Positions 12,001 through 36,000 of a stretch of DNA of 64,000 nucleotides are shown here, piece after piece; position 1 is the first letter of the stretch, and the number at the start of each line of letters is the position of its first letter. The stretch covers positions 48,422,001-48,486,000 of the forward strand of contig OZ365110.1 of the NCBI GenBank assembly GCA_977030845.1, given 5' to 3'. The position numbers are program-made. The stretch is from Fimbriosthenelais zetlandica (Eukaryota).

Positions 12001-15000
12001 AATGTAGGTTCTGTGATTTCAGGATCATGTCCAAATGTGATATCACTTGAGGGAAATTCAGCATCGGGAATGTCTGACCTCTTGCCACCCAATCTTCCTT
12101 TTATGCCACCTTCTATTTCTGGAATGTTTTTGACGTCTAGCTTAAAATCACCTTCCTTAATTATATCTGCATCATCAATAACTATTTCTCCCTGTCTATC
12201 ACTAGAAAGTTTGGGCAAAGATATATCAGGACCCCTAACCTTCCATCTGGGGCTTTTACCCTTGACTTTTATATCAGGTTCTTGAAGGTCTACGTCAGGT
12301 TTTCTGGGGGAATCTTTGCTCACTGAAATATCTAGATCTTCTGGGTACGGTTCAGCAGCATATTCATCATCACTAATAGAAACAGTGGGCTTCTTTCTTG
12401 AGAATCTTGGGAGACTGAATGATGGCCCCTTAATTTTCCACTTCCCACCCTTCAACTTTGGGGTTTCACCATCAACGTCAGGTCCTTCAACACTGATGTC
12501 TCCCTCTGGTAGTTCACCTTCAACACTGATGTCAGGCTTTTTGATATCTATGCCAGCTTTGGCACCGTAGGGTTCCTCGACAATGTCCACGTCTCCTACG
12601 CTTATTTCACCTTGGCCTTTACCTCCAAACTTGGGAAGGGAGAAGCTGGGAAGATTGATGCTAGGTCCCTTGAATCTCCACTTACGACCCTGCTTGTCAA
12701 CCTTGATGTCTGGACCTTCGATGTCAGCCTCAACTGGTTCAAATTCTCCCTCAAGTTCAGCGTCTGGGCCTTCAAATTCAGGTTTCTCTATTACAATCTC
12801 ACCCTGAGGCCCCTTACCACCAAACTTGGGAAGGGAGAAGCTGGGAAGATCGATGCTAGGTCCCTTGAATCTCCACTTGCGACCCTGCTTGTCAACTTTG
12901 ATGTCTGGTCCTTCGATGTCAGCCTCAACTGGTTCAAATTCTCCTTCAAGTTCAGCGTCAGGGCCTTCAAATTCTGGTTTCTCTATCACAATCTCACCTT
13001 GAGGTTTCTTGCCACCAAATTTGGGAAGAGAGAAGCTGGGGAGGCCAAAGCTAGGTCCCTTGAATCTCCACTTGCGACCTTTGGTGTCTACCTTTATGTC
13101 TGGTCCCTCTGCGTCAATATCCACAGGCTCAAACTCTCCTTGAAGTTCAGCGTCTGGACCCTCAAATTCAGGCTTCTCTACTTGAACATCAAATTTACCA
13201 CCATAAGGTTCCTGGACAATGTCAACGTCTCCAACAGAGATCTCTCCTTGAGGCTTCTTAGCACCAAACTTGGGAAGAGAAAAGCTGGGAAGATCAATGC
13301 TAGGCCCCTTGAATCTCCACTTGCGACCCTTCTTGTCAACTTTGATGTCTGGACCTTCAATATCAGCTTCCACTGGTTCAAATTCTCCCTCAAGTTCAGC
13401 GTCTGGACCTTCAAATTCTGGTTTCTCTATCACAATCTCACCTTGTGGTTTCTTGCCACCAAACTTGGGAAGAGAGAAGCTGGGGAGATCAATGCTAGGT
13501 CCCTTAAATCTCCACTTACGACCTTTCTTGTCAACTTTGATGTCTGGTCCTTCGATGTCTGCAGACACTGGTTCGAATTCTCCTTCAAGTCCAGCGTCTG
13601 GACCTTCAAATTCTGGTTTCTCTATGTCAATGTCTAGTTTGGCACCGTATGGCTCATGGACTACATCAACGTCACCTACGGCAATCTCTCCTTTTCCTTT
13701 CCTGCCAAACCTAGGAAGAGAGAAGCTTGGACCCTTGATGTGGGGGCCCTTGAATTTCCACTTTCCACCTTTGCCTTTTACTTTAGGTGCTTCTCCGTCA
13801 ATGTCAACGTCAGGTCCTTCAACACTGATGTCTCCCTCTGGTAGTTCACCTTCAACACTAATATCAGGCTTATTGATATCTATGCCAGCCTTTGCACCGT
13901 AGGGTTCCTTGACAATGTCCACGTCTCCTACGCTTATTTCACCTTGGCCTTTACCTCCAAACTTGGGAAGGGAGAAGCTGGGAAGATCGATGCTCGGTCC
14001 CTTGAACCTCCACTTACGACCCTTCTTGTCAACCTTGATGTCTGGACCTTCAATGTCAGCCTCGACTGGTTCAAATTCTCCCTCAAGTTCAGCGTCAGGA
14101 CCTTCAAATTCTGGTTTCTCTATGACAATCTCGCCTTGAGGTTTCTTGCCACCAAACTTGGGAAGTGAGAAGCTGGGGAGATCAATGCTAGGTCCCTTGA
14201 ATCTCCACTTACGACCTTTCTTGTCAACTTTGATATCTGGTCCTTCGATGTCTGCAGACACTGGTTCAAATTCTCCTTCAAGTTCAGCGTCTGGACCTTC
14301 AAATTCTGGTTTCTCTATGTCAACGTCTAGTTTGGCACCGTATGGCTCATGAACTACATCTACATCACCCACTGTGATCTCTCCTTTTCCTTTTCGACCA
14401 AACCTGGGAAGCGAGAAGCTTGGACCCTTGATGTGGGGGCCCTTGAATTTCCACTTTCCACCTTTGCCTTTTACTTTAGGTGCCTCTCCGTCAATATCAA
14501 CGTCAGGTCCTTCAACACTGATGTCTCCCTCTGGTAGTTCACCTTCAACACTAATGTCAGGCTTTTTGATATCTATGCCAGCTTTTCCACCGTAGGGTTC
14601 CTCGACAATGTCCACGTCTCCTACGCTTATTTCACCTTGGCCTTTACCTCCAAACTTGGGAAGGGAGAAGCTGGGGAGATTGATGCTAGGTCCCTTGAAT
14701 CTCCACTTACGACCGTGTTTGTCAACTTTGATGTCTGGACCTTCAATATCAGCCTCAACTGGTTCAAATTCTCCCTCAAGTTTAGCGTCTGGGCCTTCAA
14801 ATTCTGGTTTCTCTATCACAATCTCACCTTGAGGCTTTTTGCCACCAAACTTGGGAAGAGAGAAGCTGGGGAGGCCAAAGCTAGGTCCCTTGAATCTCCA
14901 CTTGCGACCTTTGGTGTCTACCTTTATATCTGGTCCCTCTGCATCAATATCCACAGGCTCAAACTCTCCTTGGAGTTCAGCGTCAGGACCCTCAAATTCA

Positions 15001-33000: not shown

Positions 33001-36000
33001 AACTTAGGAAGGGAGAAGCTAGGAAGATCAAAGCTAGGTCCCTTGAATCTCCACTTACGGCCCTTCTTGTCAACTTTGATGTCTGGACCTTCGATGTCAG
33101 CCTCAACTGGTTCAAATTCTCCCTCAAGTTCAGCGTCTGGACCTTCAAATTCTGGTTTCTCTATCACAATCTCACCCTGAGGTTTCTTGCCACCAAACTT
33201 GGGAAGGGAGAAGCTAGGAAGGTTAATGCTAGGTCCCTTGAATCTCCACTTACGACCTTTCTTGTCAACTTTGATATCAGGACCTTCAATATCTGCAGAC
33301 ACTGGTTCAAATTCTCCTTCAAGATCAGCGTCTGGACCTTCAAATTCAGGCTTTTCCACTGTAACATCTACTTTCGCCCCATATGGCTCATGTACTACAT
33401 CAACATCCCCTACTGTAATCTCTCCCTTTCTTTTCCGTCCGAAACTTGGCAGAGAAAAAGTTGGAGCTTTCCAATGGGGACCTTTAATTCGCCACTTACG
33501 TCCTGAGGAATCGACTTTTATGTCTGATCCTTCTGCTTCTGGATGTACTTCTTCTAATTCTCCTGAATCGCTTCCTTCTGCATGTATTTCAGCTGTGCCC
33601 TCAACCTTTCTCTTTCGCACATGTGGAAGTGAAAAACTTGGCCCTTTTACTTTCAAATTTGGCTCATCAGCATCCACTGAAAGCTCAGCGTCTGAAGGTG
33701 TTCCTGAACTTCCTTTCTTGGCTTTACCTTTTCCAAACGCCCTTGAGATAAATCCAGTTGATTCTTCAACAATTTGTGTATCACCTATAATAAACTCTCC
33801 TTGTTTCCCTCTTGGAATTTTTGCTTTCGGTCCAGTGATATCATCTTCATCATCAGAGATGTTTATATCCACTTCACCTTCTAAACTAGGTAATTCTTCA
33901 CCGTGAAGTTTTATGTCACTCTTTTGCCGTTCAGCTTTTGCAGCTTTTATCTTGGGTTCTGCAGCAATGTCAGGGGATTCTTCTCGATCCAAGTGGATAT
34001 TACCTGAAGTATCTGTTGATGCTGAACTTTTCCTCTTCTTTTCCTTCTTCTTTTTCTTCTTGAAAAGGGAGAACTTTCCACCAGAGGCTTTTCCTTCAGT
34101 CGATGATGCAGTATCAAAATCTAATGACCTGTCTGGTGTTTCAACTTCAAGTGACGTGTCAGGATTCACGCTAGGACTCCTTGATCTGATGGTAACAACC
34201 TTCTCGTAACTAATGGTAGCTTCGCCTTCTGCTGTTTGTTCAGTGACTACACTTATAACCTTTCTATAAGTTTTTGCAACAATTAAATCTTCTTGAACTT
34301 CTGTCGATTCATATGATGCATCTAAATCAGCCGACGCCAACCTACTAGAACGGTCCGTAGAATCTGATTCTGAACGTCTTTTTCTTCTCCTTTCAAGGGT
34401 CCTTGACAATGTCCCTGTCCTTTCCTGAACAACTGATGTATCTCCTAGAACTACTTCTCCCTTGTTTGTAGAAATGGGTAGTTCAAATCCTCTGGAGAGA
34501 CGGTCAGGAGATGTAATGACAATCTTTGGTTTGTCTCCAGCTGATAAACTTCTTCTTTTTCGATCACTACTGCTGCTTCTACTTCGATTGCTACTACTGG
34601 AAGAACTAGATCTGCTTCTTCCTTTGTTTGTCTCCTTTCTTTTCTTATGCTTTTTATCATGTGTATCAACAGATATCTGAGAACTTATGGCCGGATCTTC
34701 TGATTGTGCACCAAACGCAGCTGATACCCCAGGAGATTTTACCTCAAAAGCTGCTGCCCCATGTTCGTCATCTATGTTTGCCGGAGTTTCAATTCTTTCT
34801 TTTGTTACAAAATGTTCGGTAATGTCTCCTGTTGGTATGCCCTCATCAACACGTAAAATTTCTGTTTGTTCTTCTGTTGTTGTCTTCCCGTCCTTTTCTA
34901 ATGTATGTTTTTCTTTTATTACAGAAACAGTGGAGCTTTCCTCTGCTGTACCATCTGGGCCCACTCCAAACTGTGTTAGATCAAGGTCTCCTAGCCCACC
35001 TGAAACCTCAACAACTCTTTTGTGAGATACGTGATGAGTTGTTTCTGTTTTTGAGGTTTCCTCAACGGTCCTGCCAGAAGCTCCAAAAGAGAATCCAGGA
35101 AGGCTTACTTCTCCTTCACCAAAGTGTATGTCGCTGCTGAGGCCAGATGCTTCCCCAGACCCAGTTACTTGTTTTCTCTCAGTGACGATGACGCTCTGCT
35201 CTGATTGACTTGTTATCTCACTTCTTTCTGATTCAGTTTCATATGCTGTGCTACTGCTTGTTATGTGAGAATCAGAGACAGTGTCTGTAGTTGCTCCAAA
35301 TTTGAGCTCCAAGTCATCTGGGTTTACTGAAACACCGAAGGATTCATCTGGAACGGTTACCTTCGAATCAGCTTCGGATGTTTCTTTGAAAGACTCTCCA
35401 CCTGGAAAATATAAAGAGTATTCTTGGTAAGAAGTTAGAACAATTGGCAATGTTTCCTGGTATATCTAACAAAATATATACATAGCATAGAACATTAATA
35501 ATATTAAGGGAGATTAGCTTAACTGAAACAATGAGAACAAAAGGTTGCGTTCAAATCTCTTTTCCATAGTGTTAAATCATATAAATAAATATATTTTACT
35601 TTCTCCCTTTCTCGATTAGGGGCTATCTCCCTCCACTACCTGTTATAATTGATCTAAGTTAATGGATATATTACATTCACACTTGGTCGATTAGGGGCTA
35701 TCTCCCTCCACTACCTGTTAAAACTGATCTAAGTTAATGGATATATTACATTCTCACTTGGTCGATTAGGGGCTATCTCCCTCCACTACCTGTTATAATT
35801 GATCTAAGTTAATGGATTATTATATTACATTCTCACTTGGTCGATTAGGGGCTATCTCCCTCCACTACCTGTTATAATTGATCTAAGTTAATGGATATAT
35901 TACATTCTCACTTGGTCGATTAGGGGCTATCTCCCTCCACTACCTGTTATAATTGATCTAAGTTAATGGATATATTACATTCTCACTTGGTCGATTAGGG

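What the first reader, a model, noticed from the sequence alone, without database searches (positions are those of the whole stretch)
12393..33431. Strict four-module grammar with two higher-order repeat regimes
From the N-terminus the order is (CADAAB)x4 with an exact 1332-bp period (33431-28104), then a D-less transition CAAAAAB (28103-26631), then six units of form CAB-CA(1-3)DA(1-5)B starting at 26630, 23825, 21215, 18815, 16415 and 14390 (first five 2805, 2610, 2400, 2400 and 2025 bp). B is always followed by C (except the last B), D is always flanked by A, and only A varies in copy number. The two adjacent 2400-bp units both end in a short B lacking FKGPH. All indels preserve the frame. 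This records nested unequal crossing-over and suggests functional constraints on module adjacency.
Basis: seen in the sequence. Interest (0 to 1): 0.68.

Follow-up and report, generated by a model that had tools for sequence, protein, structure and literature searches.

The report
Giant repeat exon with ordered modules
One 25-kb animal exon encodes 96 related protein modules of four kinds in a strict order, best explained by old in-frame duplications kept by selection, which is an orderly but ordinary way for giant scaffold proteins to grow.

Summary
They form CADAAB x4 (1332 bp each), CAAAAAB, then six CAB+long-unit pairs of 2805, 2610, 2400, 2400, 2025 and about 2030 bp.

The array is the core of one 25,292-bp exon (35401..10110, minus strand). 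Its modules look AHNAK-like, and the exon runs without a stop into an HSPA12-type Hsp70-like ATPase domain continued in downstream exons.

Copies are not young. Super-repeat copies differ by dS 0.14-0.31 with dN/dS 0.01-0.10, and the longest exact repeat is 251 bp.

All 17 units can be derived from an ancestral CADAAB by whole-unit duplication plus A-with-A unequal exchange, so the grammar is inherited. It does not by itself show a constraint on adjacency.

Two corrections:
- D also varies, 0 or 1 per unit.

No orthologue search, read-level check or fold prediction could be done.

The parts
10110..35401 (-). Single giant coding exon, 25,292 bp. The 8467-aa ORF that contains it (10047-35450) would weigh about 925 kDa.
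   Evidence: 8467-aa ORF. Acceptor ttttccag|G at 35402/35401. Donor CAA|gtaagt at 10110/10109. GC is 0.46 against 0.38-0.40 in the flanks. Mass.
33426..35401 (-). Non-repeat N-terminal part of the exon. It has a Ser/Arg-rich tract, a Lys-run plus Phe motif, and one degenerate module at 33566-33429.
   Evidence: Translation. HMM hit with E 6e-16. No Pfam family. The degenerate module cannot be typed: A 58.9, D 56.6, C 53.1, B 38.5 bits.
28098..33425 (-). Regime 1: four CADAAB super-repeats of exactly 1332 bp (444 aa), starting at 33425, 32093, 30761 and 29429.
   Evidence: 95.3% identity at lag 1332. dN 0.006-0.022, dS 0.14-0.31. Mosaic tracts between units. The first unit is the most diverged.
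26625..28097 (-). D-less unit CAAAAAB, 1473 bp. It contains the most recent tandem A duplication (27653/27458, 1 difference in 186 nt).
12393..26624 (-). Regime 2: six pairs of CAB (693 bp) plus C-A(1-3)-D-A(1-5)-B, starting at 26624, 23819, 21209, 18809, 16409 and 14384.
   Evidence: CAB-type B modules carry GEAPK in 6 of 6. Long-unit B modules carry K in units 4, 6, 8, 10 and 12, and E in unit 14. In the tree, 4 of 6 CAB units group together with unit 14.
18810..19046 (-). Short B (79 aa) with a 15-bp deletion between two TCAAGGG direct repeats.
16410..16646 (-). Second short B (79 aa) with the same deletion. It differs from the first at 17 of 237 nt.
11628..12392 (-). Degenerate modules after the terminal B (12380-12189 and 11882-11628).
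   Evidence: HMM E 2e-5 and 7e-7. Type is ambiguous.
10111..10520 (-). Last 136 aa of the giant exon: the start of an HSPA12-type Hsp70-like ATPase domain.
   Evidence: The Atlas query was the 140-aa stretch 10101-10520, which runs 10 nt past the donor. Its first hit is 'heat shock 70 kDa protein 12B-like', score 0.94, 172 of 256 features. No Pfam hit and no significant PDB hit. The likeness to HSPA12B motifs is also recalled from memory.
7316..7537 (-). Next exon of the ATPase-like domain, phase 0 to 0.
   Evidence: ORF and splice-site scan. No Pfam hit when searched alone.
6839..7052 (-). Following exon (boundaries are candidates).
5634..5750 (-). Pro/Ser/Thr-rich linker exon. The donor at 5634 is well scored; the acceptor is uncertain.
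3891..4056 (-). Exon with the [10 protein letters not shown] motif (Hsp70 phosphate-binding-like). The acceptor is not placed.
   Evidence: The best PDB hit is DnaK at E 0.94, not significant.
3426..3628 (-). Further ATPase-domain exon. The gene runs on towards and probably past the window start.

Best explanation
The region is the central repeat array of one 25.3-kb exon of an animal gene. The gene encodes a protein of about 1 MDa: an AHNAK-like array of 96 homologous modules, followed in the same reading frame by an HSPA12-type (atypical Hsp70) ATPase domain.

Module anatomy. Each module is a 65-aa core with an acidic half (net charge about -12) and a basic, aromatic half (+8 to +12). It is built on a 7-residue beat and has one Trp. 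Types C, D and B carry an extra 18-aa prefix.

How the order arose (inferred). An ancestral super-repeat CADAAB was amplified as a whole. An A-with-A unequal exchange removed D and produced CAB. A CAB+long pair was amplified in turn. Register slips inside A runs, the only place where a module neighbours its own kind, changed the A counts. A slippage-type 15-bp deletion shortened some B modules.

What is shown. These events are old (dS 0.14-0.31), and since then every module has been held by strong purifying selection (dN/dS 0.01-0.10). A few A duplications are recent. The grammar is therefore inherited from the duplication history. What selection visibly keeps is the open frame and each type's own sequence, not demonstrably the order.

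What the protein does is inference only: a long, blocky polyampholyte scaffold, probably membrane- or cytoskeleton-associated like AHNAK, that tethers a nucleotide-regulated binding domain.
For: Parse and periods.

Exon limits and open frame.

Age and selection:
- CADAAB pairs have dN 0.006-0.022, dS 0.14-0.31 and ratio 0.03-0.10.
- All 15 CAB pairs have dS 0.14-0.31 and ratio 0.01-0.09.
- By type the ratio is A 0.07, C 0.03, D 0.07 and B 0.12, using 14 of the 17 B modules.

Copies can be told apart: the longest exact repeat is 251 bp and the best 600-bp window is 98.8% identical.

Descent of whole units: the nearest relative of a module usually sits at a super-repeat lag (1332 bp x10, 2400 x8, 2664 x7, 5415 x6) or at 195 bp (x8).

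Position-specific A subtypes: the nearest non-adjacent relative shares the right-hand neighbour type in 47.2 of 52, against 18.9 +/- 3.9 when contexts are shuffled (0 of 2000 shuffles reach it). The signal lies in codons 49-65 and tracks only the next module.

Exchange between units.

Edges are the most diverged and are flanked by degenerate copies.

The 15-bp deletion lies between TCAAGGG direct repeats.

Module chemistry: 37% charged residues, 0 Cys, 0 Met, 96 Trp in 7011 aa. Hydrophobic autocorrelation peaks at lag 7 (0.32) and lag 14 (0.15).

AHNAK likeness:
- The Atlas first hit for one CADAAB unit is 'AHNAK nucleoprotein-like', score 0.93, 202 of 256 features.
- The published AHNAK heptad P-[ED]-[AVIL]-[ED]-L-[KR]-G (PMC2171952 introduction) occurs exactly twice.
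- A relaxed form occurs 167 times, against 0.5 in residue shuffles.

HSPA12 likeness.
Against: - There are no reads, second haplotype or orthologue, so order and copy number rest on one assembly.
- The unit tree is star-like: 1 starred branch of 13, and 8 open. A single clade of all six CAB units is neither shown nor rejected (p-AU 0.164).
- There is almost no isolation by distance for B, D and the A before B (Mantel r 0.03, -0.08 and 0.07). This also fits array-wide conversion rather than one old burst.
- Reciprocal products with two D per unit, or C followed by D or B, are never seen: 0 of 17 units and 0 violations in 95 junctions. Selection on order would also predict this.
- AHNAK likeness rests on language-model features with low recognition (837) and on a motif. 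Pfam and PDB give nothing for the modules.
- No upstream PDZ domain was found.
- Hsp70 likeness has no Pfam support exon by exon. DnaK is only a non-significant first PDB hit (E 0.94).
- No fold prediction could be made.
Confidence: 0.72

Rival explanations
1. One reading: the order itself is functionally constrained. Selection removes arrays in which B is not followed by C or D is not flanked by A, because neighbouring modules act together.
For: There are 0 violations in 95 junctions. No unit has two D and no C is followed by D or B, although such products of unequal exchange are conceivable. The array is old enough (dS 0.14-0.31) for rearrangements to have occurred. Each type keeps its own sequence (dN/dS 0.03-0.12). 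B and C, the two neighbouring prefix-bearing modules, always form a doublet.
Against: All 17 units can be generated from CADAAB by whole-unit duplication and A-with-A exchange alone. The number of independent events is small. Exchange between unlike types is disfavoured anyway, since B and C share only 48% of residues. Outside the last 17 codons, A carries almost no information about its neighbours: only column 117 shows any, and nothing tracks the previous module. Flanking degenerate modules cannot be typed, so they do not extend the rule.
Confidence: 0.2
2. Steady-state concerted evolution: the similar divergence among all copies of a type reflects ongoing array-wide gene conversion balanced by mutation, not one old burst of amplification.
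For: There is little or no distance effect for B, D and the A before B. Variant patterns in B and C are mosaic. Regime 1 contains significant shared tracts. D modules are unusually alike, with nt distance 0.030 and dS 0.12.
Against: Synonymous divergence between copies is large (0.14-0.31, and up to 0.49 among A). Identical tracts are short: 251 bp at most. The six CAB units show no significant mosaicism (668 of 2000 permutations reach the observed run).
Confidence: 0.2
3. Assembly artefact: the copy number or order of units is wrong because a long near-identical array was mis-joined or collapsed.
For: The array spans 21 kb of 195-bp-based repeats, and nothing here tests the assembly against reads.
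Against: The reading frame is unbroken over 25 kb. Every unit carries private variants. No exact repeat exceeds 251 bp and no 600-bp window exceeds 98.8% identity, so accurate long reads can place every copy. All junctions are in register.
Confidence: 0.08

Closest known systems
AHNAK / AHNAK2 / periaxin giant-exon repeat proteins
   Same: One giant exon encodes a long central array of repeat units between non-repetitive ends. AHNAK has 128-aa units and AHNAK2 has 165-aa units (PMC10682155 passages). There is a 7-residue P-acidic-hydrophobic motif (PMC2171952 introduction), a lag-7 hydrophobic beat and heptad-like motifs here, and Atlas feature likeness of 0.93. Rapid lineage-specific repeat duplication is reported for AHNAK (rank 1) and PRX (rank 8) of 4939 vertebrate groups (preprint 10.1101/2020.02.14.947036 passages).
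   Different: Modules are 64-65, 83 and 84 aa in a 444-aa super-repeat, not 128 or 165 aa. No PDZ domain was found upstream. The C-terminus is an Hsp70-like ATPase domain rather than the AHNAK C-terminal region. Sequence homology could not be tested by alignment. Copies here are old and conserved rather than visibly fast-turning.
HSPA12A / HSPA12B (atypical Hsp70 family members)
   Same: The end of the giant exon and at least five downstream exons resemble the HSPA12 ATPase domain (Atlas 0.94; motif likeness recalled from memory). HSPA12A and HSPA12B are described as distant Hsp70 members with an atypical ATP-binding domain, and HSPA12A as a nucleotide-regulated adaptor of a membrane receptor (PMC6345817 passages).
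   Different: An N-terminal extension of about 8,300 aa carries the repeat array. No Pfam HSP70 match appears when exons are searched singly. The rest of the domain lies beyond what I could model.
Super-repeats of other giant repeat proteins (nebulin's seven-module and titin's domain super-repeats; recalled, not checked in any call)
   Same: Several diverged module types stand in a fixed order and are amplified as a block, so that copies of a block are more alike than neighbouring modules.
   Different: Those are folded-domain or actin-binding modules of unrelated sequence. Here there are two successive block patterns in one exon.
Sea urchin 600-kD vesicle-associated protein VAP-1 (Barton et al. 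1992)
   Same: PMC2171952 (introduction) says its repeated domains are strikingly similar to the AHNAK heptad repeats. It would be a non-vertebrate precedent for such arrays.
   Different: I could not see the paper (not held) or its sequence, so no comparison was made.

Membership tests
AHNAK family | Central repeats encoded by one giant exon | tested here: met
   Exon 35401..10110 with acceptor and donor consensus and an 8467-aa open frame. Family feature taken from PMC10682155.
AHNAK family | Repeats built on the heptad P-[ED]-[AVIL]-[ED]-L-[KR]-G | tested here: inconclusive
   There are 2 exact matches (PDAELKG in D modules) and 167 relaxed matches against 0.5 in shuffles, but the copies are not independent. 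Hydrophobic autocorrelation peaks at lag 7.
AHNAK family | Unit length of 128 aa (AHNAK) or 165 aa (AHNAK2) | tested here: not met
   Modules are 64-65, 83 and 84 aa, and the super-repeat is 444 aa. Two short modules (130 aa) or B+C (167 aa) come close to the known unit lengths, but that is numerology only.
AHNAK family | N-terminal PDZ domain | tested here: inconclusive
   No Pfam family at E up to 0.1 in 20 of the 24 minus-strand ORFs of 75 aa or more between 35.5 and 64 kb. No coding-like ORF stands out. Short exons, or exons beyond the window, would be missed.
AHNAK family | Alignable sequence homology to AHNAK, AHNAK2 or PRX | not testable with these tools
The only evidence is an Atlas feature score of 0.93 with low recognition of 837. 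PDB gives no hit.
HSPA12 (atypical Hsp70) | Hsp70-type nucleotide-binding domain recognisable by profile | tested here: inconclusive
   No Pfam match for the C-terminal 854 aa of the exon or for six exon-sized pieces searched singly. DnaK is the first PDB hit for the 57-aa exon, but at E 0.94. The joined model was deliberately not searched.
HSPA12 (atypical Hsp70) | Likeness to annotated HSPA12 proteins | tested here: met
   The Atlas first hit is 'heat shock 70 kDa protein 12B-like', 0.94, 172 of 256 features, recognition 2397. 26 of 30 hits fall in the same set. This is a lead, not an alignment.
Coding higher-order (super-)repeat array | Several module types in fixed order, repeated as a block with constant period | tested here: met
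   Four CADAAB blocks of exactly 1332 bp.
Coding higher-order (super-)repeat array | Block copies are more alike than neighbouring modules | tested here: met
   95.3% identity at lag 1332, against 53% at lag 195 in the same stretch.

The most novel reading that the evidence does not exclude
This is a previously undescribed protein architecture: an AHNAK-type heptad-based scaffold of at least 96 modules fused to an HSPA12 ATPase domain. Its four module types have each been kept distinct for millions of years because they bind different partners. The fixed order would then work as a spatial code or ruler that positions those partners along a protein of about 1 MDa anchored to a nucleotide-regulated head.
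Probability: 0.2. Interest if true: 0.65.

Novelty: new variant of a known kind. Interest (0 to 1): 0.42.

Why it matters
For the finding as given, the value is a clean, fully parsed example of how a giant coding array grows. Block amplification comes first, then exchange confined to the one module that neighbours itself, all under strong purifying selection. The module boundary is also corrected by about 17 codons.

The example shows that a strict 'grammar' can come from descent alone, and that such arrays need not be young or homogenised.

The wider interest lies in the gene. If the AHNAK-like array really is joined to an HSPA12 ATPase domain, it links two poorly understood families. I found no description of such a fusion in four literature searches. 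It would also offer a natural construct for asking what AHNAK-type repeats do.

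Tried and rejected
**Searches that gave nothing**
- Pfam on the N-flank, one CADAAB unit and the C-flank gave nothing above cut-off. HTH_17 (E 8.7e-4) was below its cut-off and covered only 13 residues.
- Pfam on six exon-sized pieces gave nothing.
- PDB sequence searches with a unit, the module profile (ribosomal eS8 at E 0.28, noise), the 57-aa exon and the exon end gave nothing significant.
- Rfam found 0 families at gathering threshold. 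There are 0 tRNA genes.
- Upstream exons and a PDZ domain: a codon log-odds ranking found no convincing ORF. Pfam gave 0 hits in 20 of the 24 minus-strand ORFs of 75 aa or more. For 10 of the 14 plus-strand ORFs of 90 aa or more there were only two sub-threshold hits, DUF6693 (E 0.027) and PRIMA1 (E 0.019).

**Ideas dropped**
- I thought the first C might be preceded by a B-like module and the last B followed by a C-like one. Type-specific HMMs did not support it.
- I thought the two 2400-bp units might be direct copies. Their A subtypes differ and their short B modules differ at 17 of 237 nt, so the equal length is probably coincidence.

**Literature**
Four looked for an AHNAK-HSPA12 architecture and none described one.
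- A peptide-string search found 0 papers.
- Barton et al. 1992 is not held.
- One search was rejected for an over-long term.

**Steps that could not be done**
No fold and no fold search were obtained.
I dropped that test.
- The bacterial and archaeal genome collection was not scanned, since it cannot hold an animal gene.
- Supplements were not consulted.

Full report
**What is there**

The window has no N. On the minus strand one ORF of 8467 aa runs from 35450 to 10047. Its GC content is 0.46, against 0.38-0.40 around it. A pyrimidine tract and AG end at 35402, and a CAA|GTAAGT donor follows 10110. The ORF is therefore one exon of 25,292 bp. There is no in-frame ATG near its start and it begins in phase 1, so it is an internal exon of a eukaryotic gene. 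I do not take the contig for human: no tool flagged it, and I know of no human gene of this build.

**Check of the observation**

I split the translation at every GE[IV][VISTA][VI] and classified each piece by its prefix. This gives 96 modules:
- 17 C of 83 aa;
- 52 A, of which 35 are 65 aa and 17 are 64 aa;
- 10 D of 83 aa;
- 17 B, of which 14 are 84 aa, 2 are 79 aa and one is a degenerate terminal copy.

It reads CADAAB x4 at 1332 bp each, CAAAAAB (1473 bp), then six pairs of CAB (693 bp) plus CAADAAAAAB, CAAADAAAB, CAADAAAB, CAAADAAB, CAADAB and CADAAB. The first five pairs measure 2805, 2610, 2400, 2400 and 2025 bp.

Independent routes agree:
- An HMM of 56 distinct modules (alignment A1) finds 96 domains in the array. 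It also finds three significant degenerate copies in the exon's flanks and nothing credible elsewhere in six frames.
- Unsupervised clustering recovers A | C+D | B, then A, C, D, B and the terminal B, all pure against the motif classes.
- TRF and the repeat finder give the expected spacings.
- Lag identity is 95.3% at 1332 bp in the first regime.

Counted by hand, B is followed by C in 16 of 16 cases, C by A in 17 of 17, and D is flanked by A in 10 of 10. Random order is excluded by any rough estimate, but copies made by duplication are not independent trials.

Two corrections are needed. D also varies, being absent in 7 units and single in 10. The 15-bp 'FKGPH' deletion is present in the terminal B as well as at 19046 and 16646.

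**Anatomy of the modules**

- C and D are an A-like body with an 18-aa insert after GEI. The A-to-C-body nucleotide distance is 0.107, A-to-D-body is 0.199 and C-to-D is 0.216.
- B is a more distant relative: 48% identical to C, E 2e-18.
- The A that precedes B is always the 64-aa form. More generally, the nearest non-adjacent relative of an A shares its right-hand neighbour type in 47.2 of 52 cases, against 18.9 +/- 3.9 when contexts are shuffled.
- The 17 columns of A that carry this information all track the next module, never the previous one, and 16 of them lie in codons 49-65. Type-specific sequence therefore begins about 17 codons upstream of the 'GE' boundary. With that register the extra A subtype disappears and the remaining 48 codons of A say almost nothing about either neighbour.
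- Each module has an acidic half (net about -12) and a basic, aromatic half (+8 to +12).
- The array is 37% charged and rich in G, K, E and P. It has no Cys or Met and exactly one Trp per module.
- Hydrophobic residues recur with a beat of 7.

**History**

Copies of the 1332-bp block differ by dN 0.006-0.022 and dS 0.14-0.31. The six CAB units differ by dS 0.14-0.31. dN/dS is 0.01-0.10 throughout, and 0.03-0.12 by module type. The super-repeat copies are therefore old, and by inference millions of years at usual animal rates. They are held by strong purifying selection rather than freshly homogenised.

The longest exact repeat in the array is 251 bp and the best 600-bp window is 98.8% identical.

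Nearest relatives lie mostly at block lags or at 195 bp. A few tandem A pairs are nearly identical (1 to 3 differences in 186 nt), so A runs are still changing.

In regime 1, unit 3 shares runs of 22 variable columns with unit 1 and with unit 2 (0 and 1 of 2000 permutations). This is a trace of exchange between blocks. The CAB units show no such mosaic.

In regime 2, the B of CAB carries a diagnostic Glu in 6 of 6, while long-unit B modules carry Lys in five and Glu in unit 14. In a tree of C + last A + B from 16 of the 17 units (the terminal unit was left out), 4 of 6 CAB units group with unit 14 (87/94) and units 1-3 group together (88/92). The tree is otherwise star-like, and a single CAB clade is not rejected (p-AU 0.164).

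Distance along the array hardly predicts similarity for B, D and the A before B. The first and last units are the most diverged and are flanked by degenerate copies, as expected for array edges.

The short B arises from loss of 15 bp between two TCAAGGG repeats. The two short B modules differ at 17 of 237 nt, so the deletion is either old or recurrent.

**Reading of the grammar**

All 17 units lie within what CADAAB generates by whole-block duplication plus unequal exchange between A modules. Exchange between the A after C and an A before B removes D and gives CAB. Slips within A runs change the counts on either side of D. A is the only type that neighbours itself, which explains why A counts vary. 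The rules are thus inherited. That no unit has two D, and that no C meets D or B, is compatible with selection on order but does not show it.

**What the gene is**

The last 136 aa of the exon resemble HSPA12 proteins. The Atlas query (10101-10520, 140 aa, running 10 nt past the donor) has 'heat shock 70 kDa protein 12B-like' as its first hit, at 0.94.

At least five further minus-strand exons with compatible phases continue the domain: 7537-7316, 7052-6839, one ending at 5634, one ending at 3891, and 3628-3426. A further candidate lies near 1102-1329.

I searched these pieces one by one and left out the step of joining them into one protein. Singly they give no Pfam hit, and the only PDB lead is a non-significant DnaK first hit.

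A CADAAB unit is nearest to 'AHNAK nucleoprotein-like' clusters (0.93, low recognition). The AHNAK heptad quoted in PMC2171952 occurs twice exactly and 167 times in relaxed form.

AHNAK-family proteins are described as giant-exon proteins with a PDZ domain, 128- or 165-aa central repeats and a long C-terminus (PMC10682155 passages). AHNAK and PRX rank first and eighth for repeat turnover among vertebrate families (preprint 10.1101/2020.02.14.947036 passages). HSPA12A and HSPA12B are distant Hsp70 members with an atypical ATP-binding domain (PMC6345817 passages).

Here no PDZ domain was found upstream. The unit lengths differ, and the C-terminus is an ATPase-like domain. The gene therefore works like an AHNAK-type scaffold but is not shown to be a family member.

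**Limits**

The open genome collection holds only bacteria and archaea. No orthologue, no taxon and no database check of novelty were possible.
- Order and copy number rest on one assembly.
- Four literature searches found no description of an AHNAK-HSPA12 fusion. Automatic gene models in databases may well exist.

**Verdict**

It is a well-preserved example of block-wise growth of a giant coding repeat. Interest is moderate. The more unusual point is the gene's architecture, which needs a proper homology search.

Noticed in passing
window 35591-36626: A 75-bp minisatellite of 13.7 copies at 94% match (also scored with a 229-bp period). It lies about 190 bp upstream of the giant exon's acceptor, in the presumed intron.
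   Followed up: no
window 12612-33506, plus strand: Nine plus-strand ORFs of 341-547 aa lie inside the array. They are antisense by-products of the repeat's codon make-up, not genes. Selection (dN/dS well below 1) is seen in the minus-strand frame.
   Followed up: partly
D modules, e.g. window 32981, 25292, 13247 (starts, minus strand): D modules are about twice as alike as the other types: nt distance 0.030 and dS 0.12, against 0.062/0.32 for C, 0.055/0.19 for B and 0.098/0.49 for A. They show no distance effect. Later spread, conversion among D modules, or constraint on silent sites could explain this. It remains unexplained.
   Followed up: partly
window 33426-35401 and 10521-12392 (minus strand): Both non-repeat flanks of the exon carry a Phe-containing motif followed by a run of Lys. 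The N-flank also has a Ser/Arg-rich tract. These look like polybasic membrane-binding or nuclear-localisation-type signals; that reading is recalled from memory and was not tested.
   Followed up: no
window 54400-54830: Runs of G (Gly or Pro runs in translation) sit where GC rises to 0.41-0.43. The two best codon log-odds ORFs outside the gene lie here. It could be a promoter or first-exon region, or plain low complexity.
   Followed up: no
window 61550-61940: A purine/pyrimidine microsatellite-like stretch that translates as SLSL... or ERER... in several frames.
   Followed up: no
window 12393-12611 (minus strand): The terminal B carries the same 15-bp deletion as the two short B modules, plus further losses. 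The deletion lies between two TCAAGGG direct repeats, so it may have arisen more than once.
   Followed up: yes
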